From positions 11,099-35,645 of the IMG/VR virus record IMGVR_UViG_3300029573_000021: a stretch of 24,547 nucleotides of DNA. One strand, written 5' to 3'. Position numbers and translations under genes: made by a program. Shown here piece by piece: positions 1,001 to 22,915 of this stretch (positions are counted from its first letter, which is position 1; each line of letters starts with the position of its first letter). Under the pieces are notes generated by a model. That model ran no database searches. It saw only the letters and a program-made list of their open reading frames with translations, and was not told the origin of the DNA. The stretch is from a virus.

Positions 1001-3172
1001 TTATGCTGGTCCGTAGGGGTAGAAGGTTCCTCCGAAGACCGGGATCTGTATCATGCCCAGGGCGTATTGCGTCACCTGGTCATCTTCGATGTCGGCAATC
1101 AGGAAGGAATAGTCGAAGTTGACGCCCGGTTTTTCTTCGGCAAGCATGATTGGGTACACCGTCCCCGGAATGCCGGAGACGTCAACGCCCGTCAATTTGG
1201 CGTCCTGGCCGAATTGGACGTTGAGCCATACTTCCCCGCTGGTCATCGGGAGTTTCACCCAGGAGGAGCCGGAACTGCCCCCCTGCGGGTATTTGCCGAG
1301 CAGATTTCCGTTCAGGTAGAGCGCGCCGGGCTTGATTTGCGCCCCGGTGATGGCTCCCTCCGTATCTTTCTGTACCCGCACCTGGAAGCCGTATTCCGGC
1401 GCGGGCGTGGCTTCCCCCGTCGCCGTCGTGATGTGCTGGCTGATAGTGGGAGATTCCGGCTTGGGGTCGTAGGTCAGGACAATTGTTTTCGGCGCGCCCT
1501 GCATGTTTTCCAGCGTGGAAGACTCGTGAGATTTGGCGTTGATGCTCCTCAATCTTATCCAGTCTTCTATGCTTAAATAGTTCAAAGCTCCATAGGACAA
1601 CGTAATGACGTTGGTCTGCAGGTCGCGGTTCACCGTCTGAATCATGGTGTTGATGTTCTGCCACTCTGGGTTTCCTCCCAGCAGCGAGACGCGGCGGCCC
1701 ATGTATTGGCGCGTCTGCGCTTCTCCCAGCGCGACAAAGGAAATCGTGCCGTCGTAAGGAAGTTCCTGCATGGATTCCCACACCGTTTTTGCAATGTCCC
1801 CATAGGGCACACCTTCCGACGGTTCCGACGATTCCTCTTCTTCCGGCCCGTTGGAGGGCTGCTCCCCGTTGTAGATGCCGTCGATGGGGTAGCTCGCAAA
1901 GGGGCGGTCCATGGTGACCAGATCCACCGAGAATTCTTCCCAAAAGCAGGGCACACCCTGCAAGGTCCCCACATTCTTGAATTTCTCCCGCCACTTGGCA
2001 GAGGCTCTTTCCGGGATGGCGAGACGCTGCTTGATGGTGGCATTGCACCACTTCGGCCTGATGGATTTGGTATGAATTTGGCCGTCCGTCAGTTCATAGC
2101 CCGTGGCCGTGATATTATAGCCTTTCGGCTTGTCTTCCTCCGTTTTGTTCCAGGGCTTCCCGGTGATGACTGGCTTCTTATCATAGGCCTCGAGGGCGTC
2201 CACGTCTTTCATCCATGGGAAATGATTTTTCCAGAAACTGTTGATCATGTCGTTCTGGTCAATCCGGGTCCCCGTCACTTTCATGCGCTGGTAGGACAGG
2301 CTGCCGGCCCTGGTTCCCTGTACCGGTTGAGGATCTTCTACCGGTTCTCCTGTAGAATTATACTTAGAATAATAGAAGTCTACGGACGTTCGGTAAACGA
2401 TGGAATGCGGTAAGGTCGGGTCTCCGTCTTCCGGGTATTTGGACAGGTAAGAGACGCGATAGCCGTTGCTTCCGGTGGTTTCGGCGACAATCGCCACGCA
2501 GGGAGGCACGAGGTCGGCGCGTGGGACAAGGGAAACGTCCATGGCTTTAACATCGTTGGAGGGCTGCAATGGCAGGGAGATAGGCGTCAGGACGTCATAG
2601 TCCGTGATGATCATCTTGGGCCGCGCGCCACTGTAGTCGTAGTACGTGACCATGCGGGGCGACCAGTGGCGGATGGATTGGAGCAGACTTCCAAGGGTGT
2701 CGCATGAGGCGTTCCATGGGATCAGCATTTTGTCGTCGCTGATCCGCAGTTCGTAGTCCGCGGGGTGGTGTTTGGCCAGATTCAGCACCCGGGAAAGGGC
2801 GGAGGAAATGCTTATTTTAGGAATGATTTCATTCCCGCCGCCGGTACTTTGCCACATCGAAAAGACCGGTTTCCATTCGGAATCAAGGGCAAAGCAGTTG
2901 TCCAGGTAATACCAGGGATCGGAAAAGACGATTTTCCAGGCACGGGATGAACCGCTGTAGGTCTTTTCGATGCTGGAAACGAGGCCGGCAAGAATGGTGT
3001 TCCCGTTTTGGGAGATGGTGACGGTGTCGAATTGCCGGAAGGGCAAGACCTCGTCCAGGGCGCGGACGGGATAAACCGCGGTAATGGTGGAGGTGGAAAA
3101 GCTTCTTTGCTCGTGATTGAGGCTCGACGGTTTGAGAGCCAGCAAATCATTGATGGTGATGTCGTGGTTCCT
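1001..3172 (-). CDS. large tail-tip / host-specificity protein (723 aa if AGG start at 3172; 714 aa if TTG at 3145)
   Basis: This is the only long ORF downstream of the tape measure gene. The reading frame is open back to the TAG of the upstream gene (3199-3197). There is no ATG or GTG in that stretch, but AGG is the 9th codon after that stop. The TTG at 3145 is the conservative alternative. Confidence 0.6.
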   Translation of the reverse strand, partial: RNHDITINDLLALKPSSLNHEQRSFSTSTITAVYPVRALDEVLPFRQFDTVTISQNGNTILAGLVSSIEKTYSGSSRAWKIVFSDPWYYLDNCFALDSEWKPVFSMWQSTGGGNEIIPKISISSALSRVLNLAKHHPADYELRISDDKMLIPWNASCDTLGSLLQSIRHWSPRMVTYYDYSGARPKMIITDYDVLTPISLPLQPSNDVKAMDVSLVPRADLVPPCVAIVAETTGSNGYRVSYLSKYPEDGDPTLPHSIVYRTSVDFYYSKYNSTGEPVEDPQPVQGTRAGSLSYQRMKVTGTRIDQNDMINSFWKNHFPWMKDVDALEAYDKKPVITGKPWNKTEEDKPKGYNITATGYELTDGQIHTKSIRPKWCNATIKQRLAIPERASAKWREKFKNVGTLQGVPCFWEEFSVDLVTMDRPFASYPIDGIYNGEQPSNGPEEEESSEPSEGVPYGDIAKTVWESMQELPYDGTISFVALGEAQTRQYMGRRVSLLGGNPEWQNINTMIQTVNRDLQTNVITLSYGALNYLSIEDWIRLRSINAKSHESSTLENMQGAPKTIVLTYDPKPESPTISQHITTATGEATPAPEYGFQVRVQKDTEGAITGAQIKPGALYLNGNLLGKYPQGGSSGSSWVKLPMTSGEVWLNVQFGQDAKLTGVDVSGIPGTVYPIMLAEEKPGVNFDYSFLIADIEDDQVTQYALGMIQIPVFGGTFYPYGPA

Positions 3173-3646: not shown

Positions 3647-3680
3647 GCTCTTGTTCTGATACGTTGATTATCCAAAAATG

Positions 3681-5681: not shown

Positions 5682-5699
5682 GGTGGAATTGATAAGGGG

Positions 5700-9102: not shown

Positions 9103-10776
9103 TTATTGCGCTAATTGGTTGATTTCTACAACGGCGGCCTCGGCGTAATGGTGGCCGACAAACGCCCACACCTGCCGCGGTTGTCCAGTCGTGTTTGCCG
9201 CCAGCGTCAGGACAACCTGGCCGCCGCCGGACCCTATTTCTTCAGAGGATTGCGTGCACCACACAGCGGCGGGGTCATGTCCGCACATGGTATCGTTCAG
9301 CACATAGATAGCCTCGGAGAGGGTGGAAGACGCCGTCAATGTCACCTCGCCGCCAGAGGCCGGAACTTCCTGAGCAGAAGCCGTTACTTCTGGAACTGGT
9401 TTAGGTGTCACGCCCTCCATTACCGTGTCCTTCATGAGGACCCAGGAGTTGGTTATGCCCAGTGAGGGTGCATTGTCTATCCTCATTCCTCCCATCCGGA
9501 GGCCCGCCTGATAAGTCCCGCTGACTTCGTGCGCCTTGAATTTGGTTGTAAGGCATGCTGTGTTGCCGGAGCCCCAAAAGGAGGAAGCCATATCCATTAC
9601 ATATTGCTTGTCCACAAACAAAGCCCAGCGATTGTAAATCTCCTGGTCATCGGGGTTGGGTGGCGTCATGGTTAATACCATATCGCACAAGTCGTTATTA
9701 AATACTCCCTTCTTCAGGGAGGCGTTAGCGGTAGCAATTGCGTAGCTTGTGTTCAACGACTGGGCTTCCACCAAGGCGGTCACCCATGACGGAATGACGG
9801 ATTCCAGAAAATAGTTGGTGCGGCTCCATTGGCCGGCAGCCGTCATGGTTATCATTCCCTCATAGGAAATGGCATTCTGCCCTGTGGCGGGCAGCGGCAC
9901 ACGGACTCCTTCGATTGCGGTGATCGTGGCGTCGTAGGTCTGCGGCTGCGTCCAGTTATAAGACCCGTCCGGATTAACATCCCCGGTATCTCCTTTCTCG
10001 CCACGGGGTCCTTGGGGACCCTCCGGCCCCTCGGGGCCTTGCGGGCCGGCAGGACCCTGCGGTCCGGTTTCTCCAATGTCGCCTCTTGGTCCCTGTTCTC
10101 CGGTCGCTCCCTGAGGACCTTGAGGTCCTGCGTCGCCCCTGGGACCCTGAGGGCCTTCGGGGCCGGTTTCGCCCGGTTCCCCCTGCGGGCCTGGTGGGCC
10201 TTCGGGACCGGCGTCTCCTTTGGGGATGGTAAACGACAACAGATAAGAGCCCGCTTCCGAGCCTTTCACGGCTTCCGCTGCGGCAGGAGTGCCAGGCTCG
10301 CCGGTAGTGACCCGGTCCACCGAAAGATTGAAATTCTCGGCGTACTTCTTGGCCTGCTCCGCGTACCAGGCGGCGCTTGACGCATTATCAAGCACCACCT
10401 GCACGCAGCCGCTTCCTTCCGGCAGCTGCACGACGACCGCGCCCGCCACGGCCTGCTGTTCGTCCGGCAAGTCAGGCGTTACACGGCCCGCAGAAACAAA
10501 GCATCCGTAGAGCAGCGGTCTTTCCTCGTTTCCGTCGTCCATGAAGACGTCGTAGGACCACCTGCCCGCAGGCACCGAAGCCCAGGAAAGCACGCCGTTA
10601 CCCTCATCGTCGCGGGAAAAGCCGAACTCGGCGACGCCTGTCTTGAGACGGACAGCGCCGCGGAGGGTGACGCCGCTCATGTCGACGGGATCCCCCTGAA
10701 AATCTACCACACGGACGACCAGCGACTGGTTCAGCCCCGTGACGGTCCGGATATCGTATTTGCCTGCCTGCTGCCT
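9103..10776 (-). CDS. collagen-like repeat fibre protein with BACON-like C-terminal domain (557 aa from AGG 10776; ORF track gives GTG 10710)
   Basis: There are 26 uninterrupted Gly-X-Y triplets ([13 protein letters not shown]...GEKGDTG, nt 9985-10218). The C-terminus VTLTASS...[20 protein letters not shown] is BACON-like. The frame is open up to the TGA of the upstream gene, with AGG as the 17th codon and no ATG, GTG or TTG before 10710. Confidence 0.7.
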
Positions 10777-10824: not shown

Positions 10825-11475
10825 TCAGGAACCCGGCGCCGGCGTCACGTCCTGCACATTGGAGGGCGTGAACTGGTACTTGCCGCGATAATCCATTTCG
10901 AACTCGAACTGGGGTGAAGCAATCGCCGTGGTGTGTTCGGGATCCTGCAGGAGGCGCAAGGCGCCATGCGCCGTTCCGACCAGATAGATAGTACCCACGT
11001 CGTTCTGATACCAGAAGTGAAGATACCCCTCAATCTTATTGTCGCCGCCATGTCCGACGGTGGTCGATTCCTCGCCGTTGGCGGGAGGCGCTCCCAAGGC
11101 GAAAGAAAGCTGGAACCATTCGGGGGACATGTCCGGCGTGGTGAAGGTCATCCGCTTGCCGGTCGTGGTGTTCTTGCGCTGCTGGCGATATCCCAGCGCA
11201 CCGCCGTAAAAGCGCGTCACATCCCCTTCGACCTGGGTGGCGACGGACTGGAACGCTCCCAGCAGCCCGAAGCTCACCCAGGGCTGTTCAGGCCCGGCGG
11301 TCGGATCCGTTGGCGGAGACGTCGGAGGCGTCGGAAACTGGTCCGGCCCGGTGACGTAAGAAGCTCCCTCGTCTTCGGTCACCTTGATGCCGTCGGGGAG
11401 GAAAATAGCCAGAACGCCGGTAATCTGCGGCGTGACGTTGCGGTTCGTGAATGTGGGATCGTATGTAGTTGCCCT
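10825..11475 (-). CDS. structural protein with Pro/Thr-rich linker (216 aa from AGG 11475; ORF track gives GTG 11382)
   Basis: The 31 codons upstream of the GTG read ATTYDPTFTNRNVTPQITGVLAIFLPDGIK, which looks like coding sequence. They contain no ATG, GTG or TTG. The AGG lies 15 nt after the upstream stop at 11490. Confidence 0.6.
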   Translation of the reverse strand, partial: RATTYDPTFTNRNVTPQITGVLAIFLPDGIKVTEDEGASYVTGPDQFPTPPTSPPTDPTAGPEQPWVSFGLLGAFQSVATQVEGDVTRFYGGALGYRQQRKNTTTGKRMTFTTPDMSPEWFQLSFALGAPPANGEESTTVGHGGDNKIEGYLHFWYQNDVGTIYLVGTAHGALRLLQDPEHTTAIASPQFEFEMDYRGKYQFTPSNVQDVTPAPGS

Positions 11476-14672: not shown

Positions 14673-15596
14673 TTAAGCCGTGGCCGTCGCGTCGATGCGG
14701 ACGATGGCGCTGGGGTTCGTCAGCTTGGTCAGCGAGTAGACGCGGTTGGTTACCAGCGTCAAAGCGGGCGTCGGCTTGTATTCAGTGATGACTTCTCGGC
14801 GAAGCTTGCCGGAAAGACCGAAGGTCTTGACGGCGGAGGCGTCGAACTGCGTCGGGGAGTCTTCCTTGTACAGGACATAGACTTCGTTTTCCATGATGGT
14901 TTTCGCGTCGCCGGAAGCGTCGCGGTACGGCATGGAGGCGATGTAAATATCCCGGATGGGCCGGATCAGAGCCATGCGAAGAAGGTCTTCGTTGAACAGG
15001 CCGACGCTGTTGAAGGAAACCACCTGACGCGCGAGCGTGTTGGAGCGAAGCAGCTGCCATGCGTTGATGCCGAAGACAATCGTGTTCGGCATGTGTCCGG
15101 TTGCGGCGTTGATGGACAGGATCGCCTGGTCCAGATCCGCCAACGGGTTTTTCTGCTGGTTGGCCCAGTCACCCATCCCGGAAGCGGCCGGAAGCTGGCT
15201 CATCAGAAGCTTGGCGCGTTCGTATTCGTACGACGTCACAAACTGGGATTCGATGAGTTTGTATTCCGCCAGGGTGATGGCCTGCGCCTTTTCCCGGTTG
15301 ACGCCCAGCAAGGCGTCAGGGATGGGCAGCGTCAAGCCGTAGCCCTGAAGGGTGTCGGTTTCGTTTCTTCCGCGCAGGACGGTCTGGCGGGGAGGTTCGC
15401 CCGGTCCCACCTGGATGGGCTGGACGGTGAAGGCCGATTCCGTGTCCCAGACCTTGTACTGGAAATTCAGGTCATAGACCGGGACGATCGGAGCGATGCG
15501 GCTGATGATGGAGTTCTCTTCGGTGTTCCCGGACCCCGCGGAATAGGAGGTCAGGACATCGGTGAACTGAACGGCGGAGCAAAATGGAGTAGCCCT
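14673..15596 (-). CDS. major capsid protein, HK97 fold (lambda gpE / Mu gpT-like), 307 aa from AGG 15596 (ORF track gives GTG 15410)
   Basis: It follows the protease/scaffold and decoration genes. The 62 codons upstream of GTG 15410 read ATPFCSAVQFTDVLTSYSAGSGNTEENSIISRIAPIVPVYDLNFQYKVWDTESAFTVQPIQ with no ATG, GTG or TTG. AGG is the 10th codon after the in-frame TAA at 15626-15624. Confidence 0.75.
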   Translation of the reverse strand, partial: RATPFCSAVQFTDVLTSYSAGSGNTEENSIISRIAPIVPVYDLNFQYKVWDTESAFTVQPIQVGPGEPPRQTVLRGRNETDTLQGYGLTLPIPDALLGVNREKAQAITLAEYKLIESQFVTSYEYERAKLLMSQLPAASGMGDWANQQKNPLADLDQAILSINAATGHMPNTIVFGINAWQLLRSNTLARQVVSFNSVGLFNEDLLRMALIRPIRDIYIASMPYRDASGDAKTIMENEVYVLYKEDSPTQFDASAVKTFGLSGKLRREVITEYKPTPALTLVTNRVYSLTKLTNPSAIVRIDATATA

Positions 15597-16083: not shown

Positions 16084-17196
16084 TTAACGTTGGGCGGAGA
16101 CGATGAAGCCCTCTTCGGTCGCCTTCTGGCAGGCGTCATAGCGCTTCATGCCGTCCTTGATGAGTTCGTTCACGCGGTTGTTGAATCCGTCAATGGATTC
16201 CTTCTTGCGGAATGGGTCAGGGGGATTCAGAGTCGCGCGGCGGTTCAGAGGCGTCCTTTGCGGAAGCTTCTTCTGCTCCGGCTGCTCCTGTTTCTGCGGG
16301 CCCGCCTGGCGGTTGAGCGCGCGGATAAAGGCGTTCAGCGCGGCGGGGCTTTCCCGGAGAGAGTTTTTCAGCTCTTCCCGGCGTTCTTCCGTGAATTCCT
16401 CGCGTTCTTCCTCGTCCAGCGCGTTTTCGTACGTGCTGACGGCGTCGTCCACTTCGGCGTTCACGTGGTCTTTCTCACGCTTTTCCAGCGAGAGCAGTTC
16501 ATCAAGTCGTCCGAGGATCGCCCTGCTCATGTCGTCGGTGCCGTCAAATTCGACATCCAGCTTGTCAAGCAGGGAATCGAACAGGGCCCGCTGGGCCTTG
16601 TCCATTTCCTTGGACGGATATTCTCTATCGTCGTTTTCCATATTGGTGTTCTGGGTTGTTTCCCCCTCTTCGGGGCTTTTGGGTTCGCCCCCGGCCTCGT
16701 CGGAGGCGGGGGAAGTCTGTCGGTTGACCAGAGGCCGCTTTCCCTTGATGCGCGGCCGGTTGGTCAGAGCGAAGCCGGTCAGACGCGACGGGCGGTAGAC
16801 GCCGTCCGTCAAAGTCATGCCTTCGCCATATTCGGTGGATGATTGCGTGTATTCCTTGTCCTGCAGCATCTTCAGGCCGCGCGGCGTCCATTCGATGAAC
16901 CCGTAGAGTTCCAGCGTGCCGGAAGGGTCGCGGTAGGTGTCCAGCCTCTTGAGCCATCCGAGGGCCCGAGTATCGCGGGAAAGGTCGTGGCTCAGGTGGT
17001 CGCCGTCGATGAGCATGCCCGGGCCGTCAAAGGTGCGGGCGTTGAAGTCGTCCACCATGTCCCGGATCGCCTGCTCGTCGATGCGCAACACGGCGGGACC
17101 CTCGCCGTAGTCAACGTCATGGTCTCCGCTTTTCTCAACGTGGAACCAGCCGTTGGCGGGTCGGGACAGGTCATTGATTTGTTTCGTGCTGATCAT
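16084..17196 (-). CDS. prohead protease / scaffold fusion, Mu gpI-like (370 aa)
   Basis: ATG start. The N-terminus NGWFHVEKSGDH...IDGDH resembles Mu-like prophage protein I. The C-terminal half is acidic coiled coil and scaffold-like. Confidence 0.65.
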   Translation of the reverse strand: MISTKQINDLSRPANGWFHVEKSGDHDVDYGEGPAVLRIDEQAIRDMVDDFNARTFDGPGMLIDGDHLSHDLSRDTRALGWLKRLDTYRDPSGTLELYGFIEWTPRGLKMLQDKEYTQSSTEYGEGMTLTDGVYRPSRLTGFALTNRPRIKGKRPLVNRQTSPASDEAGGEPKSPEEGETTQNTNMENDDREYPSKEMDKAQRALFDSLLDKLDVEFDGTDDMSRAILGRLDELLSLEKREKDHVNAEVDDAVSTYENALDEEEREEFTEERREELKNSLRESPAALNAFIRALNRQAGPQKQEQPEQKKLPQRTPLNRRATLNPPDPFRKKESIDGFNNRVNELIKDGMKRYDACQKATEEGFIVSAQR

Positions 17197-18535
17197 CGGT
17201 AAATCCTTTCATGAGTCCGGCGTAAATCATTTGCTGAAGCTGTTCATAAGCATCGGGCGGAATGAGTGCTTTTTCCGGTTCCCTGTTGGCCGCCGCCGTC
17301 ACCGGAACGGGGTCCTGCGTGTCCTCGATCGACATGCCGATCTTTTCTTCAATCTCGGTCTTCTCGGGGCGGACGCCTCCGTCGGCAAGCGCGGCGATTT
17401 CCTCGGCTTTCTGCAGCGGGGTCTGGACGGTGTCAAAAGTGATGTGGAGGCGGGCCAGCGGTTCGCCGTCTCCCAGGACAAGCGGGCTGATGGCGGCGTT
17501 AAAAGCTTCGGCGACCTTGGAACAGACCGCGGAGACGACCGAATTCCAGCTGTCCGTGTGCGCTCCCCCGGCCAGCGTGCCGGATCCTGATTCATTCAGG
17601 ACGGTCAGAGTGCCGGCCATTACAAACCGCACCTGGTCCTTGTCGGACATGTTGATTCGGGATAGGAAATAGTTTTCGTTGATGTTGGAGGCTTTCAACG
17701 GTTCGGCGGCGCAGCCGGGAGGAAGCACAATGGAGGCTCCCGATTTGAGTTCCTCACAGGCCCGTTCCAGCGCGTCCATGACGGCGGCGCTCGCGTCCTT
17801 GGGCGCCGTGATGATGACCGGGGCGCTCCCGTAGCGGTCCATATGGTTGTCCCACGTAACTTTGGCGTGATTCCGCTCAAAAGAGGCGCGGGTTGCCGGA
17901 AAAAGAATGGGGTTCCGGTGCTCCATGACCACGAGCGTTTCTTCCTCTACGCTCTCGCCCGTGTCGACCCCGATGTAGCACTGGGGATTAAACTGCCATT
18001 CGTTCAGCTCTCCGGGCCGCACCCAGTATCGCTGCGGGATGAATTCAAAGCGGCGGCCCCAGGAATCTTCGATGTATTGGAGGTGGGCGTACCCGTAAAA
18101 CATAGCGGAGGCCAACTGCCCAAAGGCCTGTTGAAGTCCGGTGACGGAGTGATAGAATTCTTCCAGCGCGTTCTGCTGACGCTGGGCTTCCGGGCTGTCG
18201 TCCGCGGCGTCAATCTTCCATCCCTGCATGGAGACGCTTTCAATGAGCCGGGAATAGAGCATGCCCATCAAGCCGTCCGAGTAGATGACCTCGTCCCAAA
18301 TGAGCATTTGGCGGGCAAAGGCTCCACGCCGCGCTTCGTTCCGGGCGTCAATCAGGGTTTGCAGGTCGGCGCCCTGTAACGGGTCCCAATATTCGTACCA
18401 TTGAGGCTGGTTAGGCTTCCGGCTCTGTTCCGTCAACGCTCGCCGGGCCAGGTCCGTTTCAAGCTCCTTGATTCTGGTCTCCTGTTGGGCTACCAGCTTC
18501 GGGGCGTTGAGGATATTTCGGACGGCGTTAAACCT
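17171..18535 (-). CDS. portal protein (Mu gp29 / DUF935-like), 454 aa from AGG 18535 (ORF track gives TTG 18436)
   Basis: It lies downstream of the terminase. The 33 codons upstream of the TTG read FNAVRNILNAPKLVAQQETRIKELETDLARRA, a coiled-coil N-terminus with no ATG, GTG or TTG. The AGG at 18535 lies 23 nt downstream of the tRNA 3' end. Confidence 0.75.
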   Translation of the reverse strand, partial: RFNAVRNILNAPKLVAQQETRIKELETDLARRALTEQSRKPNQPQWYEYWDPLQGADLQTLIDARNEARRGAFARQMLIWDEVIYSDGLMGMLYSRLIESVSMQGWKIDAADDSPEAQRQQNALEEFYHSVTGLQQAFGQLASAMFYGYAHLQYIEDSWGRRFEFIPQRYWVRPGELNEWQFNPQCYIGVDTGESVEEETLVVMEHRNPILFPATRASFERNHAKVTWDNHMDRYGSAPVIITAPKDASAAVMDALERACEELKSGASIVLPPGCAAEPLKASNINENYFLSRINMSDKDQVRFVMAGTLTVLNESGSGTLAGGAHTDSWNSVVSAVCSKVAEAFNAAISPLVLGDGEPLARLHITFDTVQTPLQKAEEIAALADGGVRPEKTEIEEKIGMSIEDTQDPVPVTAAANREPEKALIPPDAYEQLQQMIYAGLMKGFTDDQHETNQ

Positions 18536-18558
18536 GCGGCGGGAGGAAAAGAAAAGGT

Positions 18559-18632
18559 TGGTTGCAGGGGGAGGAGTTGGACCTCCGACATGAGGACAGG
18601 AACCTCATATGATACCGTTTCACCACCCTGCG
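18559..18632 (-). tRNA. 74-nt tRNA, anticodon CCU (reads AGG), with initiator-tRNA-like acceptor stem and encoded CCA
   Basis: Hand-folded cloverleaf: CGCAGGG-UG-GUGA-AACGGUA-UCAU-A-UGAGG-UUCCUGU-CCUCA-UGUC-GGAGG-UCCAACU-CCUCC-CCCUGCA-A-CCA. Acceptor pairs 2-7 are Watson-Crick and 1:72 is a C/A mismatch. U8, G18G19, U33 and purine 37 are present. One deviation is C at position 55 of the T-loop. Confidence 0.6.
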
Positions 18633-18679
18633 ATTGAATATAAATCAACACATATAGATATGTTGATATATTGTCAACC
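18633..18679 (-). promoter_or_regulatory. AT-rich spacer with TTGACA hexamer and nested palindromes upstream of the tRNA
   Basis: On the minus strand, TTGACA lies at 18677-18672. Palindromes are ATCAACA...TGTTGAT (18644-18650 / 18661-18667) and ACATAT-AG-ATATGT (18650-18663). I could not fit a convincing -10 box at 17 nt, so promoter function is tentative. Confidence 0.3.
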
Positions 18680-20053
18680 CTAATATCTCCCGTAAGCGCG
18701 TTTTGATGACACGGGACGGGCGTACCAGGCTCCCAGCGTCCGCGCCAGTCCGCTGTTCCGGCGCGCGTGCCAGGCCATCACAAGGGCGTCGGCCCGGTCT
18801 GGGGAACGAACGCCCCGCTTTGCCATATCTTCTTTGCTTTCAATGCGGACGCGGCCTATTGCGTCGGTTTGGAGTCGTGGAGCAACCAGCTGCTCAATCG
18901 TATCCTCGTCAATGTCGAGGATGAGTTCTTTTTCTTCGATGGCGCGGGCGAGAGCCCGCCATGCTTGGGCGCGGAGGTTGACAAAGGCTTGTGTGTCATC
19001 TGCCGGGAAGCCTCCCCGGTAGGAGTGCACGGGGAAACCCTCAGCCCGGAAGTCGTCAATGATGGGAAGCCCCAGTCCGTCGCCGTCGGCAAAGATGCGG
19101 TCGGCAGAGATGCCGAGTTCGGCGGCCTTTCGGCGGAAACGTCCGCGCGCTCCTACAGTGTCTGGGTCGGCCCAGTGGTCGGCGATGAAAAAACGGTTGC
19201 CCTGTCCGGCCGCGAAGACATTCTCATCACCCCCGGCGGCGAAGTCAAAGCCGCCGCAGGTCTCCCCGGTGTCCAAAAAGGGAGGCGGGTTGTTGAGCAG
19301 CTCCATGATGGCGCGGCGGGAAATGACGGATTGCCCGTCGAGGTCGGTGAATTCGCCGAGGATGGCGGAGCGGTAGAAGGAGGACTGTTCGCCGTATTCT
19401 TTTTTCAGGCGCTCGGCCTTGCCCGGATCGTTGATTTCGATATGCGGGCAATCCTCGTATTTGACGCGGATTTTGTAATAGAGCGATGAATTTTTGTGAA
19501 AGCAGTCGTAAAAGGTGCCGGAATCGGCGCCAGGCGACGAGGTGATGAACGCGTGAAAGAGCGTGCAGCGGGAAACAGCGGTGAAGATGGAGTCGGGAAT
19601 GGTCTTGGCTTCGTCCAGGACGTAAAAGACGGGATCCACGTCGGGCGAGATTTTCGGGTGCCATCCTTCCGCGCGGCCGGCGTTGTCGGTCGAGAAGCCC
19701 ACGGCAAAACCTCCTTCAGGGGTACGGATTTCCGTCTTGTTGAACGTCCAGCCGTCAAAGAAAGGGTTGTCCATGTAGCGGCGGAGCGCGGGAAAGAGCT
19801 GCTTTTCCACCTGCATCCACGACGACGACGTGACCGGCACCTGCCCCCGCGGGAAGCAGGTAAGGAAGTACAGGATGGCCGGAGCGATGCAGTTGCTCGT
19901 CTTGCCGGATCCGTTGGGGGCGACCAGAGCCACGCTTTTCCCTCCCAGGGTCAGCTTGCCGAGGGACAACGCCTTGATGGCTTCCACCTGCCAGGGATAG
20001 GGATCCAGGCGGAGGATGTGGCGAAGGAAGAAGCTGACGGGGAGGTATGGCCT
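18680..20053 (-). CDS. terL: terminase large subunit, 457 aa from AGG 20053 (ORF track gives GTG 19987)
   Basis: It has Walker A (VAPNGSGKTS), Walker B (FYVLDEAK) and a C-terminal nuclease-like acidic motif. The 22 codons upstream of the GTG read PYLPVSFFLRHILRLDPYPWQ, which includes the conserved pWQ motif. They contain no ATG, GTG or TTG. The AGG lies 5 nt after the TerS stop. Confidence 0.85.
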   Translation of the reverse strand, partial: RPYLPVSFFLRHILRLDPYPWQVEAIKALSLGKLTLGGKSVALVAPNGSGKTSNCIAPAILYFLTCFPRGQVPVTSSSWMQVEKQLFPALRRYMDNPFFDGWTFNKTEIRTPEGGFAVGFSTDNAGRAEGWHPKISPDVDPVFYVLDEAKTIPDSIFTAVSRCTLFHAFITSSPGADSGTFYDCFHKNSSLYYKIRVKYEDCPHIEINDPGKAERLKKEYGEQSSFYRSAILGEFTDLDGQSVISRRAIMELLNNPPPFLDTGETCGGFDFAAGGDENVFAAGQGNRFFIADHWADPDTVGARGRFRRKAAELGISADRIFADGDGLGLPIIDDFRAEGFPVHSYRGGFPADDTQAFVNLRAQAWRALARAIEEKELILDIDEDTIEQLVAPRLQTDAIGRVRIESKEDMAKRGVRSPDRADALVMAWHARRNSGLARTLGAWYARPVSSKRAYGRY

Positions 20054-20058: not shown

Positions 20059-20574
20059 CTAGGGATTGAGCTTGCCAGCGATGGTTTCCAGCGCGGTTTT
20101 CTCGTCTTCCTGGAGCTGGGCCAGCTGCTCGGGGTCCAGGGTGATTTTCCGTTCCAGCGGCGCCCCGGGAACGCCGGCGACGTCCTGGCGGACCCGGTCT
20201 CCAAATTTTTCGGGAGCGAAACGGGCAGCGACTTTCAGCCGGGTTTCAATGGCGAGCTTCTTCGCGGCGACGGAGGCGGAGCCGCATTCCGGGTCAAGGG
20301 CGACTTTTGCGGCTTCATCGGCCAGTTCCTGACACGCGTCGAGCATAGCTTCCGACTGCGCTTCCCGCGAGCGTTGAATGAGTTGGGAAAAATCCGGCCT
20401 GGTTTGCCGCCAGTTCCAGACTGTCCAGACGTCCGGCATGTGATCGTCCGAGCAAATGGACTTCATCGTTTCCCCGTTGGCTAAACGGGAGGCTATCTCG
20501 TCGGCTAATGCCTCCGTATAGAGGCTGGGCCGTCCTATTTTCTTGTTGGCGGTAGGTGATTGCTTCTTTTTCCT
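20059..20574 (-). CDS. terS: terminase small subunit, 171 aa from AGG 20574 (ORF track gives ATG 20466)
   Basis: The 36 codons upstream of the ATG read KKKQSPTANKKIGRPSLYTEALADEIASRLANGET, the typical TerS N-terminal HTH (GRPs.Yt.e.a.eIc.rla.G). An in-frame TAG lies at 20583-20581, only 3 codons before the AGG. There is no ATG, GTG or TTG in between. Confidence 0.8.
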   Translation of the reverse strand, partial: RKKKQSPTANKKIGRPSLYTEALADEIASRLANGETMKSICSDDHMPDVWTVWNWRQTRPDFSQLIQRSREAQSEAMLDACQELADEAAKVALDPECGSASVAAKKLAIETRLKVAARFAPEKFGDRVRQDVAGVPGAPLERKITLDPEQLAQLQEDEKTALETIAGKLNP

Positions 20575-20582: not shown

Positions 20583-20611
20583 ACTCTAGAGGACAGTAGC
20601 TAGCAAATCAA
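20583..20611 (-). promoter_or_regulatory. putative late-operon promoter, TTGATT-17 nt-TAGAGT
   Basis: On the minus strand the -35 is at 20611-20606 and the -10 at 20588-20583. The -10 ends 8 nt before the AGG at 20574, which predicts a leaderless or near-leaderless TerS mRNA. This is a sigma70-type match by eye only, and the host promoter grammar is unknown. Confidence 0.3.
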
Positions 20612-20643
20612 GCACTCTGTTTGTTCTTTCCTTTCTGGGCCCA

Positions 20644-20672
20644 TTGACAAATCTGACCCTCTCACATATACA
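20644..20672 (+). promoter_or_regulatory. putative divergent promoter, TTGACA-17 nt-TATACA
   Basis: The -35 is at 20644-20649 and the -10 at 20667-20672. The GTG at 20679 lies 6 nt after the -10, which predicts a leaderless transcript for the zinc-ribbon gene. Confidence 0.35.
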
Positions 20673-20678
20673 GATTTT

Positions 20679-21044
20679 GTGAAAAAGTGTCCTATATGCG
20701 GCAAGGATGTTCCGCCGCGCTACGGAGCGCGGGAAAGCGTATACTGCTCCCGCGCTTGCCTCAAGGCACACTATGACGCCGCCTGGGAAACTATCACCTG
20801 CCCCGTGTGCGGAAAGGAATTCCGCGCTAAAAAACTCTTTCGGCGGAAACATTGCTCTTATCCTTGCGCAAATGCGGACATGGCAGCGGCGCCGGATGGC
20901 GGGTACTTGCCGCCCCTGCCGTCCCGAAGGAATAAAAAAGGGCAGCCCCGAAGAACCGCCCTTTTTAAGGGAATGAGCGTTTCCGCTCGTGCTGATCTTG
21001 TGATCGTTTTAATCCACAGCCCCGGAGGGCTGACGTGTTCCTAG
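20679..21044 (+). CDS. tandem zinc-ribbon protein (two CPxCGK...(Y/H)CSxxC units, YacG/zf-FCS-like), 121 aa
   Basis: GTG start. The two units are CPICGKDVPPRYGARESVYCSRACLKAHYDAAW and CPVCGKEFRAKKLFRRKHCSYPC. The C-terminal 50 aa look poorly coding. They contain an A-tract/hairpin/T-tract at 20935-20966. Confidence 0.55.
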   Translation: MKKCPICGKDVPPRYGARESVYCSRACLKAHYDAAWETITCPVCGKEFRAKKLFRRKHCSYPCANADMAAAPDGGYLPPLPSRRNKKGQPRRTALFKGMSVSARADLVIVLIHSPGGLTCS

Positions 21045-21140
21045 AAAGAACAAATTACTTCTCTCATATTCTGCGCCAGGCCGCAAGCAAAAACGGAATG
21101 ACAACTTTTTTCACCTTTTTTCATTTTTTCTCTTGCATTC

Positions 21141-21155
21141 CTATAAATTTTATAG
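21141..21155. promoter_or_regulatory. perfect 7-1-7 palindrome CTATAAA-T-TTTATAG in an AT-rich promoter region
   Basis: Read directly from the sequence. It lies about 80 nt upstream of the ATG at 21234 and is followed by TAATTTTG and TTGACG motifs. It is an operator-like site. Confidence 0.3.
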
Positions 21156-21233
21156 TAACTTAATTTTGTTGACGGGAGGTAAGGGACCGAACGAAGACAT
21201 AATCCAAATAACAAAACTAGAAAGAACAAGACA

Positions 21234-21557
21234 ATGAACGATAACAAAATCATCACCACGGAAGACGGAGAAGAAATCAACCTGACCGCTCTTGAACGTG
21301 AATTTGGCAGCTACAAGTTTGAAGGCAAGACCTACTATGCAGCGCGCCAGATGGAATACACCAACAGGGTTTTCCCTGGCTCCTATGCGGACAAATACGA
21401 AGACGGCAGCTATACGGAAGAATGGTCTGCTCCCGGCTATGATGCAGAAGGGAACAAGGTTGAAATCTTCATGGTCTTTGAACAAATGACGGGCGAAGAA
21501 ATTGAAGGAGAAAACCTCAACTGGACGCAGGACGCTTCCCGCGTTGAAGCTCTCTAA
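21234..21557 (+). CDS. small highly acidic protein (107 aa)
   Basis: ATG start. About a quarter of the residues are D or E, and the protein is rich in aromatic Y/F/W. It is followed by a strong hairpin and lies in the low-GC island. Confidence 0.6.
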   Translation: MNDNKIITTEDGEEINLTALEREFGSYKFEGKTYYAARQMEYTNRVFPGSYADKYEDGSYTEEWSAPGYDAEGNKVEIFMVFEQMTGEEIEGENLNWTQDASRVEAL

Positions 21558-21566
21558 ATAACCCCC

Positions 21567-21596
21567 AGGGGCGGCAAAGCCGCCCCTCCTTTCTCA
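21567..21596 (+). terminator. intrinsic terminator-like hairpin (AGGGGCGGC-AAA-GCCGCCCCT) followed by CCTTTCTC
   Basis: It has a 9-bp GC-rich stem, a 3-nt loop and a pyrimidine/T-rich tail. The next ATG is only 3 nt after the tail, so it may act as an attenuator rather than a full stop. Confidence 0.55.
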
Positions 21597-21598
21597 CT

Positions 21599-22903
21599 AT
21601 GACCGCACAAGAATTTATCGACTGGCTTCAAACTGCCAACAATCTTCCAAATCCTACCCAAGCTGTAAAAAGGGCCGCGCAGATGATGCGGGTGACGGAA
21701 GATGCTGTTTGGAAGTGGCTAAATACTAAAAAACCACATCCCACGCCTGAATACATGCAATTGCTCATGGAGTTATTGCATGAAAAATACCGAGAAAAGA
21801 GGTTTCACCGCATTATTTCTCACGAGCAGCGTGAAGAAATGCGGTCCATGTTGGGCAAAAAACCTGATCTGGAAATCGCCGAGCTACTCGGAATAGCGCG
21901 CGTCACGGTCCAGACTGAACGCTATAAATTAGGTATCAAAAAGTATTGCAGCCCTGAAGCAATCCGCATCCAACACGATGAAGAGCTTATTGCAGTGCTC
22001 GGAAAAATTCCTGACTCGGAGTGTGCCAAGAAGTTTGGATACTCAAATTCCAGAGTAGCCTACCTTAGAAAGAAATTAGGGATTAAGTCATATAGGGGGC
22101 CGCGTAAACCCCGTCAGCCACGAGACCCAAATAAACCACACAAGAAAAAAGAGTATCCCGAAGAGTTAATTAACATGCTTGGAAAGACCCCGGATGATGA
22201 AATTGCTAAAAAATTCGGTTATTCCAAGGCAGGAATTGCGCTTATTAGAAAAAAGATGGGCATTCCATCATTATCTGATACTAAATTCCCCGAAGAGAAA
22301 CGCGAAGAAATGCTATCCATGCTTGGGAAAGTTCCTGATAGCGAAATTGCTGAAAGGCTTGGAATATCGCTTAATGTTGTAGCGCGGAACCGTAGAAAAT
22401 TAAAAATTGCTCCAGCTCCATACTCTCCCATTAAGGATGCGGACAAGGATATAATTCTTAATTTATTGGGAAGAGTATCAGATTTAAAAATTGCAAAAAA
22501 AACAGGGTACAGCGTATATGTAATTAAAAAATTTAGAGAACAGAACAAAATTAAGCCTTTCAGTAAAAGCATTTTAGAAAGATTTTCACCGGACCAACGT
22601 AAAAAACTCTTATCTATGCTTGGGAAAGTTTATGATAGAGTAATAGCCGAAAAATTTAATATTGATGACGAGGCAGTAAGAAGAATTAGACAGAAATTGA
22701 ATGTTCCGGCATTACGTGAGGAAAAAAGCTTGCAAGAAACAATAGAAGGGGACGAATACATTAAATCCCTGCTGGGCACAATGACTGATAAAGAAGTCGC
22801 TAATAAAACAGGCAAATCAATACAAGTTATCGGAAAAGCAAGGAGAAAATTAAATATCCCGGCGTTTGATACAAGGGGGCGGTCTACAAAGAAACAATCT
22901 TGA
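21599..22903 (+). CDS. DNA-binding protein with an N-terminal HTH plus seven tandem HTH repeats (434 aa)
   Basis: The unit (M/L)LGK.PD.EIA.K.G.S...V...R.KL.I recurs 7 times at a period of about 45-60 aa. Examples are MLGKKPDLEIAELLGIARVTVQTERYKLGI and MLGKTPDDEIAKKFGYSKAGIALIRKKMGI. The unit resembles sigma-70 region 4 or a small HTH. GC content is about 40%. Confidence 0.75.
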   Translation: MTAQEFIDWLQTANNLPNPTQAVKRAAQMMRVTEDAVWKWLNTKKPHPTPEYMQLLMELLHEKYREKRFHRIISHEQREEMRSMLGKKPDLEIAELLGIARVTVQTERYKLGIKKYCSPEAIRIQHDEELIAVLGKIPDSECAKKFGYSNSRVAYLRKKLGIKSYRGPRKPRQPRDPNKPHKKKEYPEELINMLGKTPDDEIAKKFGYSKAGIALIRKKMGIPSLSDTKFPEEKREEMLSMLGKVPDSEIAERLGISLNVVARNRRKLKIAPAPYSPIKDADKDIILNLLGRVSDLKIAKKTGYSVYVIKKFREQNKIKPFSKSILERFSPDQRKKLLSMLGKVYDRVIAEKFNIDDEAVRRIRQKLNVPALREEKSLQETIEGDEYIKSLLGTMTDKEVANKTGKSIQVIGKARRKLNIPAFDTRGRSTKKQS

Positions 22904-22915
22904 TCTTTCCAAGAT

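What the first reader, a model, noticed from the sequence alone, without database searches (positions are those of the whole stretch)
18559..18632. Phage tRNA with anticodon CCU and the acceptor stem of an initiator tRNA-fMet
A 74-nt cloverleaf lies between TerL and portal on the coding strand. The sequence is CGCAGGGUGGUGAAACGGUAUCAUAUGAGGUUCCUGUCCUCAUGUCGGAGGUCCAACUCCUCCCCCUGCAACCA. The anticodon loop UUCCUGU gives anticodon CCU, which decodes AGG. The acceptor end is CGCAGGG...CCCUGCA-A-CCA. From memory, E. coli tRNA-fMet has CGCGGGG...CCCCGCA-A-CCA. This tRNA therefore carries the C1xA72 mismatch, G2:C71, C3:G70 and A73. These are the established determinants for methionyl-tRNA formyltransferase and for exclusion from EF-Tu. 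It also has two G:C pairs (30:40 and 31:39) adjacent to the anticodon loop, where canonical initiators have three. CCU is one substitution away from the initiator anticodon CAU. Phages commonly carry tRNA-Arg(CCU) as a rare-codon supplement, but an elongator should have a paired 1:72. Several features do not fit an initiator: U11:A24 is elongator-like, 29:41 is A:U, and T-loop position 55 is C. The charged amino acid (Arg, Met or other) cannot be inferred from the sequence.
Basis: partly seen in the sequence, partly recalled or inferred. Interest (0 to 1): 0.95.

Follow-up and report, generated by a model that had tools for sequence, protein, structure and literature searches.

The report
Phage initiator tRNA reading AGG starts
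An Akkermansia phage carries a tRNA built like a bacterial initiator tRNA but with anticodon CCU, and seven of its virion genes begin with an invariant AGG instead of ATG/GTG/TTG, which looks like a natural phage-encoded start-codon reassignment, a thing so far only engineered in the laboratory.

Summary
A 74-nt tRNA with anticodon CCU lies at window 18559-18632 on the minus strand, between TerL and portal of an Akkermansia phage.

Across 16 distinct variants from 46 related loci:
- 20 of 21 cloverleaf pairs are always paired, and 8 show compensatory changes.
- Position 1:72 is C·A in every variant.
- C3:G70, A73 and CCA never change, and G2:C71 is kept in 15 variants (G:U in one).
- Most variants have three G:C pairs at 29-31:39-41.

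New finding: seven minus-strand virion genes have no conserved canonical start. They are TerS, TerL, portal, major head protein, g11475, the collagen-like tail fibre and g3172.
- Coding-type conservation in each begins at an AGG found in 21 to 45 of 21 to 45 related loci.
- Upstream sequence is unrelated or carries indels that are not multiples of three.
- Pfam and PHROG profiles align into the stretch before the first ATG/GTG/TTG.
- AGG is rare internally (5.2 per 1000 codons) and absent inside the major head protein and TerL genes.

Best explanation: a phage-encoded initiator tRNA(CCU) that starts translation at AGG. The attached amino acid (Met or Arg) is unknown. No natural precedent turned up in the paper library. 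An engineered E. coli i-tRNA(CCU)/AGG pair works well. All evidence here is computational.

The parts
18559..18632 (-). Initiator-type tRNA with anticodon CCU. It has C1xA72, G2:C71, C3:G70, A73, an encoded CCA, G30:C40 and G31:C39 (A29:U41 in this copy), U20, G37 and a 4-nt variable loop.
   Evidence: ARAGORN. Rfam RF00005, 49.9 bits. 16 variants with 8 covarying pairs and 1:72 never paired.
18633..18679 (-). Conserved promoter-like and operator-like spacer between the TerL stop and the tRNA. A perfect TTGACA lies at 18677-18672, followed by AT-rich GATAT/ATATC repeats.
   Evidence: Consensus scan found 3 sites against 0.3 expected. TTGACA is conserved in 25 of 26 aligned upstream variants (TTTACA in L038). 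Function is inferred, not shown.
18536..18558 (-). Hypervariable, T/C-rich 23-nt spacer between the tRNA 3' end and the portal AGG. It has no Shine-Dalgarno motif.
   Evidence: Non-mod-3 indels and little conservation among 27 variants.
17171..18535 (-). Portal gene (Mu type) starting at AGG 18535-18533.
   Evidence: AGG in 45 of 45 loci. Variable columns after it by codon position 1/2/3 are 5/2/13. The 'TTG' at 18436 is CTG or TTA in relatives. Pfam Portal_Mu.
18680..20053 (-). Large terminase gene starting at AGG 20053-20051, 5 nt after the TerS stop.
   Evidence: AGG in 43 of 43 loci. The GTG at 19987 becomes ATC or GTA in relatives. phrog_2 aligns from residue 16, and the GTG is residue 23. 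The ATG-start homologue L048 aligns inside the extension.
20059..20574 (-). Small terminase gene starting at AGG 20574-20572.
   Evidence: AGG in 39 of 39 loci, with unrelated mosaic sequence directly upstream. Pfam PF20901 covers profile positions 1-105 only with the AGG start, scoring 99.6 against 75.2 bits. The ATG is residue 37.
14673..15596 (-). Major head protein gene starting at AGG 15596-15594.
   Evidence: AGG in 45 of 45 loci. phrog_1005 aligns residues 13-263 to profile positions 14-273. The first canonical start (GTG) is residue 63. No internal AGG.
10825..11475 (-). Structural gene of unknown function (216 aa) starting at AGG 11475-11473.
   Evidence: AGG in 37 of 37 loci. Indels lie between the upstream TAA and the AGG. 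Third-position variation follows it, 3/5/16 by codon position.
9103..10776 (-). Collagen-like tail fibre gene starting at AGG 10776-10774. It is preceded by a terminator-like hairpin (10812-10794) and a T-run of variable length.
   Evidence: AGG in 36 of 36 loci, with variation 4/2/18 by codon position. Collagen and tail-fibre profiles. Hairpin coordinates.
1001..3172 (-). Large tail-region gene (723 aa) probably starting at AGG 3172-3170. This is the least certain of the seven.
   Evidence: AGG in 21 of 21 loci. Three synonymous and two conservative changes lie between the AGG and an equally invariant TTG 9 codons downstream.

Best explanation
The tRNA is a phage-encoded initiator tRNA whose anticodon has changed from CAU to CCU. 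It lets host ribosomes start translation at AGG codons that head seven virion genes: TerS, TerL, portal, major head protein, g11475, the tail fibre and g3172.

**Steps shown by sequence evidence**
1. The tRNA is real and under purifying selection for the cloverleaf.
2. That selection also keeps an unpaired C1xA72, G2:C71, C3:G70, A73 and G:C pairs next to the anticodon loop.
3. The seven genes lack any conserved ATG/GTG/TTG. Their coding conservation begins at an invariant AGG that sits in the same G-poor leader context as the phage's ATG starts.

**Steps inferred from established E. coli biochemistry**
1. The host formyltransferase accepts the tRNA through the 1:72 mismatch and the 2:71 and 3:70 pairs.
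2. The mismatch together with formylation keeps it off EF-Tu and protects it from peptidyl-tRNA hydrolase.
3. IF2 and IF3 place it in the P site through the G:C pairs and a fully complementary AGG:CCU pairing.

**Amino acid.** This is unresolved.
- Met is plausible. C34, U36, A73, G2:C71 and C3:G70 are kept, and E. coli MetRS is known to mischarge tRNA-Arg(CCU).
- Arg is also plausible because C35, U36 and A73 are present. However, the main bacterial determinant A20 is missing.

**Likely biological role (inferred).** Synthesis of key virion proteins is tied to expression of the phage's own tRNA, which has its own conserved promoter-like element. This would act as a translational switch or lock on particle production.
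For: **The tRNA**
- ARAGORN and Rfam both call it.
- It is present in all 46 close relatives that reach the site and absent from relatives with TerL identity of 41% or less.
- Across 16 variants, 20 of 21 pairs are always paired, 8 pairs carry double changes, and 1:72 is C·A in 16 of 16. G2:C71 is kept in 15 of 16 (1 G:U). C3:G70 and A73 are kept in 16 of 16.
- 12 of 16 variants have G29-G31:C39-C41.
- The acceptor end matches E. coli tRNA-fMet at 13 of 15 positions and argW (CCU) at 3 of 15. U20 replaces the A20 of argW.
- A gapless 72% match with the same architecture exists to a phage tRNA-Met(CAU). That tRNA has a 1:72 mismatch and lies in a head-gene module.

**The AGG starts**
- AGG is present in 39/39, 43/43, 45/45, 45/45, 37/37, 36/36 and 21/21 loci for the seven genes.
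- Leaving out TerS, whose 6-nt indel upsets the ungapped count, variable columns in the next 20 codons are 23, 21 and 87 at codon positions 1, 2 and 3.
- Upstream spacers carry non-mod-3 indels or unrelated sequence.
- The first canonical codons downstream are not conserved.
- Pfam and PHROG profiles extend into the pre-ATG stretch for TerS, the major head protein and TerL.
- The ATG-start TerL of the tRNA-less phage L048 aligns within the extension.
- Leaders of AGG and ATG starts both have 12% G, against 27% overall and 29% upstream of internal AGG codons. Position -1 is C in 6 of 7 AGG starts and 11 of 16 ATG starts.
- Seven of 23 genes start with AGG, while internal AGG runs at 5.2 per 1000 codons and is absent inside the major head protein, TerL and g11475 genes.

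**Feasibility from the literature**
- An engineered E. coli i-tRNA(CCU) with an AGG start was the best of 12 non-canonical pairs in all six strains tested, giving 35- to 402-fold increases (bioRxiv 10.64898/2026.04.16.719103).
- With the native initiator, AGG starts are suppressed by IF3 (PMC6868393).
- The roles of the 1:72 mismatch, the 2:71 and 3:70 pairs and the three G:C pairs are described in PMC6393288.
- Identity rules and mis-methionylation of tRNA-Arg(CCU) are described in PMC9976931.
Against: - No expression, charging, formylation or N-terminal protein data exist. Everything rests on comparative sequence analysis.
- Some initiator hallmarks are missing:
  - 11:24 is U:A, not A:U.
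  - The window's own copy has A29:U41.
  - The T-loop has C55 in most variants.
  - The anticodon loop is UUCCUGU, where E. coli tRNA-fMet has CUCAUAA.
- If Arg is the attached residue, formylation may be poor. From my own recollection of E. coli work, not checked here, basic residues are poor formyltransferase substrates.
- The host's own tRNA-fMet and tRNA-Arg(CCU) could not be retrieved. I therefore cannot exclude that Akkermansia's normal tRNA-Arg(CCU) looks similar.
- For g3172, an invariant TTG nine codons downstream remains a possible start.
- A near-identical phage pair differs only in CAU versus CCU and shows no start-codon changes (L211 versus L216/L218). Isolated CCU variants of initiator-type tRNAs can therefore occur without AGG starts.
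Confidence: 0.78

Rival explanations
1. This is an ordinary phage elongator tRNA-Arg(CCU) that supplies a rare AGG codon during late gene expression. On this view the 1:72 mismatch is a tolerated quirk, and the AGGs at gene heads are unrelated to it.
For: ARAGORN labels it tRNA-Arg. C35, U36 and A73 are Arg identity elements (PMC9976931). The phage genes do contain 36 internal AGG codons. U11:A24 is elongator-like.
Against: - AGG makes up only 8.7% of Arg codons (5.2 per 1000 codons). It is absent inside the major head protein, TerL and g11475 genes, and 11 of the 36 sit in one low-GC gene.
- A20, the main bacterial Arg determinant, is missing.
- C1xA72 is kept in 16 of 16 variants while other acceptor pairs covary. 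That is the opposite of what an EF-Tu client should show.
- This reading gives no explanation for seven genes without canonical starts that all begin at an invariant AGG.
Confidence: 0.06
2. The tRNA has a dual use. It initiates at AGG and, when not formylated, also reads internal AGG codons as an elongator. Start-codon reassignment would then be only part of its role.
For: In E. coli, initiator tRNAs with a 1:72 mismatch can enter elongation when formylation is slow (PMC6393288). The phage keeps some internal AGG codons. If the tRNA is charged with Arg, formylation is likely to be inefficient.
Against: There is no positive evidence for elongator use. Internal AGG codons are few and sit in G-rich contexts like ordinary codons. 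If the tRNA carries Met, elongator use would misincorporate Met at Arg codons.
Confidence: 0.12
3. The AGG starts are read inefficiently by the host tRNA-fMet as near-cognates of AUG, to keep virion proteins low. The phage tRNA would serve something else, for example as a decoy or replacement against a host tRNA-cleaving defence.
For: AGG differs from AUG at one position. Low-level initiation at AGG by the native initiator has been reported in E. coli. Phage tRNAs that evade anticodon nucleases are documented (PMC10264068, listed).
Against: - The major head protein is needed in hundreds of copies, and IF3 suppresses AGG starts with the native initiator (PMC6868393).
- An exactly complementary CCU anticodon on an initiator-shaped tRNA inside the same operon would have to be coincidence.
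- The tRNA and the AGG starts co-occur in every locus. The nearest phages without the tRNA use ATG.
Confidence: 0.04

Closest known systems
Bacterial initiator tRNA-fMet (for example E. coli metZ/metY)
   Same: Unpaired C1xA72, G2:C71, C3:G70, A73 and G:C pairs closing the anticodon stem. 13 of 15 acceptor-end positions are identical to E. coli tRNA-fMet. By inference it is used only at start codons.
   Different: - The anticodon is CCU, not CAU.
- 11:24 is U:A, not A:U.
- The D-loop has 7 nt and the variable loop 4 nt.
- Position 37 is G, and the T-loop has C55 in most variants.
- It is encoded by a phage inside the virion-gene operon.
- It pairs with AGG, not AUG/GUG/UUG.
Engineered orthogonal initiator tRNAs with altered anticodons (for example amber i-tRNA(CUA), i-tRNA(AAC), and i-tRNA(CCU) with AGG starts)
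   Same: Same principle: an initiator body with a new anticodon starts translation at the complementary codon. The CCU/AGG pair is the best-performing engineered pair in six E. coli strains (10.64898/2026.04.16.719103).
   Different: Those are laboratory constructs made from metY. This one is natural, conserved across a phage lineage, and matched by seven native AGG-start genes.
Phage suppressor tRNAs and stop-codon recoding of late genes. I know of this system from memory and did not check it with the tools.
   Same: A phage-encoded tRNA changes how a codon is read, so that late or structural genes are translated properly only when the phage tRNA is present.
   Different: That system reassigns stop codons during elongation. 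Here a sense codon is used as a start codon through an initiator-type tRNA.
Phage-encoded tRNA-Arg(CCU/UCU) as a rare-codon supplement, and E. coli argW
   Same: Anticodon CCU, A73, a short D-loop and a 4-nt variable loop.
   Different: argW has a paired G1:C72, A20 and A37. The phage tRNA has C1xA72, U20 and G37. The phage's own genes make little internal use of AGG.
Phage-encoded initiator-like tRNA-Met(CAU) in head-gene modules (IMG/VR contigs L216 and L218)
   Same: 72% gapless identity and an identical 15-nt D arm. Both have a 4-nt variable loop (TGTT versus TGTC), G37, A29:U41/G30:C40/G31:C39, a 1:72 mismatch, G2:C71, C3:G70 and A73. Both lie next to head genes.
   Different: It keeps the CAU anticodon, and its neighbouring major head protein gene starts with ATG. 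The mismatch is U1xC72 and CCA is not encoded.

Membership tests
Bacterial initiator tRNA | No Watson-Crick pair at 1:72 | tested here: met
   C·A in 16 of 16 distinct variants, while 20 other pairs are always paired. Rfam marks the pair as non-standard.
Bacterial initiator tRNA | G2:C71, C3:G70 and A73 (formyltransferase and MetRS acceptor determinants in E. coli) | tested here: met
   G2:C71 in 15 of 16 (one G:U). C3:G70 in 16 of 16. A73 in 16 of 16. Pairs 4:69 and 7:66 change by compensatory substitutions and 5:68 varies on one side (G:U in one variant).
Bacterial initiator tRNA | Three consecutive G:C pairs at 29:41, 30:40 and 31:39 | tested here: inconclusive
   All three are present in 12 of 16 variants. 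The window's variant and one other have A29:U41. Two variants have U31:G39.
Bacterial initiator tRNA | Purine11:pyrimidine24 (A11:U24) | tested here: not met
   U11:A24 in 16 of 16 variants.
Bacterial initiator tRNA | Anticodon CAU | tested here: not met
   CCU in every copy. This is the point of difference that makes it a variant.
Bacterial initiator tRNA | Decodes the first codon of genes | tested here: met
   The evidence is indirect. Seven genes begin at an invariant complementary AGG and have no conserved canonical start. There is no direct translation data.
Bacterial initiator tRNA | Aminoacylated, formylated, bound by IF2 and excluded from EF-Tu | not testable with these tools
   Needs acid-gel northern blots or tRNA-seq, formylation assays and pull-downs.
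Elongator tRNA-Arg(CCU) | Anticodon CCU with C35 and U36 | tested here: met
Elongator tRNA-Arg(CCU) | A20 in the D-loop (the main bacterial ArgRS determinant) | tested here: not met
   The D-loop is AACGGUA, so position 20 is U. E. coli argW has AAUGGAUA with A20.
Elongator tRNA-Arg(CCU) | Paired 1:72, as needed for normal EF-Tu use | tested here: not met
   C·A in 16 of 16 variants.
Elongator tRNA-Arg(CCU) | Codon demand: AGG enriched in the phage's genes | tested here: not met
   36 of 6955 internal codons are AGG. None occur in the major head protein, TerL or g11475 genes. Host codon usage was not available for comparison.
Phage tRNA-mediated recoding of late genes (stop-codon type) | In-frame stop codons in late genes read by a suppressor tRNA | tested here: not met
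   All 23 genes translate without internal stops under table 11. The tRNA is not a suppressor. Only the logic is analogous.

The most novel reading that the evidence does not exclude
This may be a natural, phage-encoded orthogonal translation-initiation system. A dedicated initiator tRNA with a non-CAU anticodon reassigns the sense codon AGG as the start codon of the terminase, portal, capsid and tail-fibre genes. Virion production is then translationally locked to expression of the phage's own tRNA. It would be the first natural initiator tRNA known to read a codon outside the AUG/GUG/UUG family.
Probability: 0.7. Interest if true: 0.95.

Novelty: new variant of a known kind. Interest (0 to 1): 0.9.

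Why it matters
**A new kind of natural code deviation.** Every natural translation system described in the papers I could search starts with an initiator tRNA carrying anticodon CAU. Non-AUG starts (GUG, UUG and others) are read by that same tRNA through mismatches. A natural initiator tRNA with a different anticodon, matched by its own set of start codons, would be a deviation at the level of initiation.

**Consequences for phage biology.** It would add a new layer of phage gene control, a translational lock on virion genes.

**Consequences for annotation.** Gene callers mis-place the starts of major structural genes in these gut phages. tRNA finders label the key component 'tRNA-Arg'.

**Consequences for synthetic biology.** It would provide a ready-made, evolution-tested orthogonal initiation pair. 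The pair is the same CCU/AGG combination that performs best when engineered.

**Medical and ecological relevance.** The host, Akkermansia muciniphila, is a prominent human gut commensal and probiotic candidate.

Tried and rejected
1. **Spurious AGG candidates.** Candidate AGG starts for minus-strand ORFs 21150-21593 and 20586-21008 were rejected. The region is coded on the plus strand.
2. **Long open frames without early canonical starts.** Two frames (13013 to 11859 and 13228 to 12386) looked like further cases. Substitution phasing against phage DTMo-2021a showed ordinary ATG starts at 13051 and 12389 that overlap the upstream stops.
3. **AGG as a Shine-Dalgarno remnant.** Rejected. No in-frame ATG/GTG/TTG follows within 5-13 nt, the ATG genes also lack a Shine-Dalgarno motif, and codon-phased variation starts immediately after the AGG.
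4. **Descent from tRNA-Arg.** The D arm and variable loop resemble E. coli argW, so I considered this. The same D arm also occurs in phage tRNA-Gln, tRNA-Asn and initiator-like tRNA-Met. The best overall match is the last of these, at 72% gapless identity.
5. **An anticodon/start-codon covariation test.** I hoped the pair L211 (CCU) versus L216/L218 (CAU) would provide one. The contigs are 99.3% identical, and no start codon differs in the 4.4 kb they share. L211 is therefore an isolated variant or an error.
6. **Initiator-bodied tRNAs with CCU outside phages.** These were found in an alphaproteobacterial MAG and six metagenome contigs.
   - They sit in ordinary chromosomal contexts.
   - At the syntenic Nitrospira site next to fmt, three other genomes have CAU.
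   - Such a search picks rare single-base variants out of millions of initiator genes, so I do not count these as further examples.
7. **Host tRNAs.** Akkermansia tRNA-fMet and tRNA-Arg(CCU) could not be retrieved.
8. **Literature.** Seven searches found no natural precedent.
Full report
**1. The observation**

- ARAGORN finds a single tRNA in the window, at 18559-18632 on the minus strand, with anticodon CCT.
- Rfam's tRNA model matches it with 49.9 bits (gathering score 29, E = 4e-8) and marks the 1:72 pair as non-standard.
- In standard numbering the tRNA has these features:
  - C1xA72, G2:C71, C3:G70, A4:U69, A73 and an encoded CCA.
  - D stem G10:U25, U11:A24, G12:C23 and A13:U22.
  - A 7-nt D-loop, AACGGUA, so position 20 is U.
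  - Anticodon stem U27:A43, G28:C42, A29:U41, G30:C40 and G31:C39.
  - Anticodon loop UUCCUGU, so position 37 is G.
  - A 4-nt variable loop.
  - T-loop UCCAACU.
It matches a tRNA-Met gene at 100% identity, present at a median of 4 copies per genome, in all 5426 E. coli genomes.

**2. Context**

- The window is 86% identical to Akkermansia phage DTMo-2021a (CP084202.1, host A. muciniphila) over the 2.2 kb around the tRNA (17500-19700).
- Pfam and PHROG profiles identify these genes on the minus strand:
  - replication initiator, DnaC-like loader, small terminase and large terminase;
  - the tRNA;
  - Mu-type portal, Mu-like prohead protease, major head protein, collagen-like tail fibre, amidase and further tail genes.
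- The tRNA lies 47 nt after the TerL stop. A perfect TTGACA at 18677-18672 and AT-rich repeats precede it. TTGACA is conserved in 25 of 26 aligned upstream variants (TTTACA in one). The tRNA probably has its own promoter and operator. This is an inference.

**3. The tRNA is conserved and its odd features are selected**

- A TerL-based search of IMG/VR returned 75 loci.
- Every locus with TerL identity of at least 88% that reaches the site carries the tRNA at the same place. Loci with identity of 41% or less do not.
- There are 16 distinct tRNA sequences. Counting pairs on the standard cloverleaf gives:
  - 20 of 21 pairs are paired in all 16 variants;
  - 8 pairs show changes on both sides, which 0 of 500 shuffles reach, and slid controls give 1-4;
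  - the one exception, 1:72, is C·A in all 16.
- G2:C71 (15 G:C, 1 G:U), C3:G70, A73 and CCA are essentially fixed. Pairs 4:69 (A:U to G:C) and 7:66 (G:C to A:U) covary, and 5:68 is G:U in one variant.
- The positions that do not move are the ones that E. coli work identifies as determinants for formylation and for avoiding EF-Tu and peptidyl-tRNA hydrolase (PMC6393288).
- Twelve of 16 variants have all three G:C pairs at 29-31:39-41. The window's copy (A29:U41) belongs to the minority.

**4. Seven virion genes start with AGG**

*How it was noticed.*
- The portal frame is open from inside the tRNA, and the first ATG/GTG/TTG (TTG at 18436) lies 56 codons in.
- I aligned the 200 nt after the tRNA from 27 variants.
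  - The first ~20 nt form a hypervariable, T/C-rich spacer whose indels are not multiples of three.
  - Conservation then begins at an invariant AGG (18535-18533) and continues with third-position and conservative changes in the portal frame.
  - The 'TTG' is CTG or TTA in relatives, so it is simply a Leu codon.

*The wider scan.* Looking for long open leaders and aligning relatives showed the same pattern for TerS (AGG at 20574), TerL (20053), the major head protein (15596), g11475 (11475), the collagen-like fibre (10776) and g3172 (3172).

*Numbers.*
- AGG is present in 39/39, 43/43, 45/45, 45/45, 37/37, 36/36 and 21/21 loci.
- Leaving out TerS, where a 6-nt indel disturbs the ungapped count, variable columns in the 20 codons after the AGG are 23, 21 and 87 at codon positions 1, 2 and 3.
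- Between 18 and 30 of the 30 columns upstream vary.
- For TerS, the sequence upstream of the AGG is completely unrelated among sub-lineages, and homology starts at the AGG.

*Independent protein-level support.*
- With the AGG start, TerS matches Pfam PF20901 over profile positions 1-105 with 99.6 bits. From the ATG, which is residue 37, the match covers positions 20-105 with 75.2 bits.
- The major head protein aligns to phrog_1005 from residue 13 to profile position 14, although its first canonical start is residue 63.
- TerL aligns to phrog_2 from residue 16, and the GTG is residue 23. That GTG is ATC or GTA in relatives.
- A tRNA-less phage (L048, 39% identity to TerL in the alignment) starts TerL with ATG at a position that aligns inside the window's AGG-to-GTG stretch.

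*Context.*
- The phage's ATG genes have no Shine-Dalgarno motif. They have A/C-rich leaders with 12% G, usually ending in C.
- The AGG genes have the same signature: 12% G, and C at -1 in 6 of 7. Sequence upstream of internal AGG codons has 29% G.

*Codon usage.*
- Seven of 23 genes start with AGG and 16 start with ATG.
- Internally, AGG accounts for 36 of 6955 codons. It does not occur inside the major head protein, TerL or g11475 genes.
- If gene heads drew AGG at the internal rate, seven of 23 would have a probability of about 1e-11 (my binomial estimate from the numbers).

**5. Mechanism**

- The most economical reading is that the tRNA is a phage initiator tRNA whose CCU anticodon pairs perfectly with AGG start codons.
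- What the sequence evidence shows directly: the initiator-type acceptor end is conserved, G:C pairs adjoin the anticodon loop, the AGG gene heads are invariant, and tRNA and AGG starts co-occur completely.
- What is inferred from E. coli biochemistry:
  - formylation by host Fmt;
  - IF2- and IF3-dependent P-site binding;
  - exclusion from EF-Tu.
- Feasibility is documented experimentally.
  - An E. coli initiator tRNA mutated to CCU gives 35- to 402-fold activation of AGG-start reporters. It was the best of 12 non-canonical pairs in all six strains tested (bioRxiv 10.64898/2026.04.16.719103).
  - With the native initiator, AGG starts are selectively suppressed by IF3 (PMC6868393).
- The amino acid is open.
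  - ArgRS determinants C35, U36 and A73 are present, but the main one, A20, is missing.
  - MetRS determinants C34, U36, A73, G2:C71 and C3:G70 are present, but A35 is not.
  - E. coli MetRS is known to mis-methionylate tRNA-Arg(CCU) (PMC9976931).
  - I regard Met and Arg as about equally likely.
- The likely purpose is to make synthesis of packaging, capsid and fibre proteins depend on the phage's own tRNA. This would act as a lock against leaky expression in lysogens or as a timing and stoichiometry device. This is inference.

**6. Origin and distribution**

- Searching IMG/VR for initiator-type 3' ends with a G:C-closed CCU anticodon arm gave only this phage group plus about 11 chance matches that are not tRNAs.
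- The same kind of pattern in 185,579 representative genomes found one Akkermansia MAG carrying the prophage.
- A D-arm search uncovered a phage tRNA-Met(CAU) in contigs L216 and L218. It has a U1xC72 mismatch, G2:C71, C3:G70, A73, the same D arm, G37, a 4-nt variable loop and the same A29:U41/G30:C40/G31:C39 stem. Gapless identity to the Akkermansia phage tRNA is 72%. It sits just upstream of the scaffold and ATG-start major head genes.
- For comparison, over 60 fixed positions the identity is 63-67% to E. coli tRNA-fMet and 45-48% to E. coli argW.
- The Akkermansia phage tRNA therefore most likely descends from a phage-borne initiator-type tRNA-Met.

**7. Caveats and side paths**

- A third contig of the L216/L218 phage (L211) has CCU in an otherwise identical tRNA. 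No start codon differs in the 4.4 kb it shares with L218 at 99.2% identity.
- Canonical initiator bodies with CCU also turn up in chromosomal contexts in an alphaproteobacterial MAG and in six metagenome contigs. At the syntenic Nitrospira site next to fmt, three other genomes have CAU.
- Such searches select rare single-base variants from millions of initiator genes, so these cases are not evidence for further systems. They show that CAU to CCU is a small mutational step.
- Host tRNAs could not be retrieved.
- The start of g3172 is the least secure of the seven.
- There are no expression or protein data.

**8. Novelty**

- Seven full-text searches found only engineered initiator tRNAs with altered anticodons. 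None reported a natural initiator tRNA with a non-CAU anticodon or a phage with AGG start codons.
- I classify the finding as a new variant of a known kind (initiator tRNA, and phage tRNA-mediated recoding).
- As a natural phenomenon, start-codon reassignment by a dedicated tRNA has no precedent that I could find.
- Public gene calls on identical contigs place these starts wrongly. For example, the fibre is called at 525 aa instead of 557, g3172 at 714 instead of 723, and g11475 at 185 instead of 216.

**Verdict**

Confidence in the initiator-tRNA/AGG-start model is about 0.78, and interest is 0.9.

Noticed in passing
L066 1174-1247, L067 1974-2047, L070 2274-2347 (IMG/VR phages with about 25% TerL identity): These unrelated gut phages encode a tRNA-Met(CAT) upstream of TerL. 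It has a G1xA72 mismatch, A11:U24 and G30:C40/G31:C39, so it is an initiator-like phage tRNA with the normal anticodon.
   Followed up: partly
L216 and L218 (tRNA at about L218 281-355) and L211 (about 609-683): A phage lineage carries an initiator-like tRNA-Met(CAU) with U1xC72 just upstream of the scaffold and major head genes. One of three 99.3%-identical contigs (L211) has CCU instead, with no start-codon changes in the shared 4.4 kb.
   Followed up: yes
L179 140-216 (Alphaproteobacteria MAG); L180, L181, L183, L186, L187 and L191 (metagenome contigs): These are canonical bacterial initiator tRNA bodies with anticodon CCU in chromosomal contexts, for example next to fmt in a Nitrospira contig and next to def in L187. 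Three other Nitrospira genomes have CAU at the syntenic site. L183 also differs by a compensatory 27:43 change. They may be rare variants, errors or real genes. This is unresolved.
   Followed up: partly
window 18633-18679 (minus strand): A perfect TTGACA and GATAT/ATATC repeats lie immediately upstream of the tRNA. TTGACA is conserved in 25 of 26 aligned upstream variants. This is a probable promoter plus regulator-binding site inside the late operon.
   Followed up: partly
window 10794-10812 (minus strand): A G+C-rich hairpin with compensatory changes among relatives, followed by a T-run of variable length, lies between g11475 and the fibre AGG. It looks like an intrinsic terminator or attenuator within the tail module.
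   Followed up: no
window-wide, gene starts on the minus strand: None of the 23 genes has a Shine-Dalgarno motif. Leaders are A/C-rich with 12% G and usually a C at -1, which suggests Shine-Dalgarno-independent initiation in this phage-host pair.
   Followed up: partly
window 3000-5700 and 21000-23000: Two low-GC islands (39-46% GC, in a window that is mostly 55-65% GC). The first holds a 666-aa coiled-coil gene that contains 11 of the 36 internal AGG codons and 13 AGA codons. The second holds a plus-strand multi-HTH gene. Both are probably acquired modules.
   Followed up: no
L119 and L120 (ENA metagenome contigs identical to the window): Automatic gene calls place the starts of AGG-start genes at downstream GTG or TTG codons. 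The fibre is called at 525 aa instead of 557, g3172 at 714 instead of 723, and g11475 at 185 instead of 216. Public protein databases therefore hold N-terminally truncated versions.
   Followed up: partly
L198-L252 (37 large IMG/VR phage contigs): tRNA-Gln(UUG) genes in large phages share the exact 15-nt D arm GUGAAACGGUAUCAC with the Akkermansia phage tRNA. D-arm identity alone is therefore not a reliable sign of common descent.
   Followed up: no
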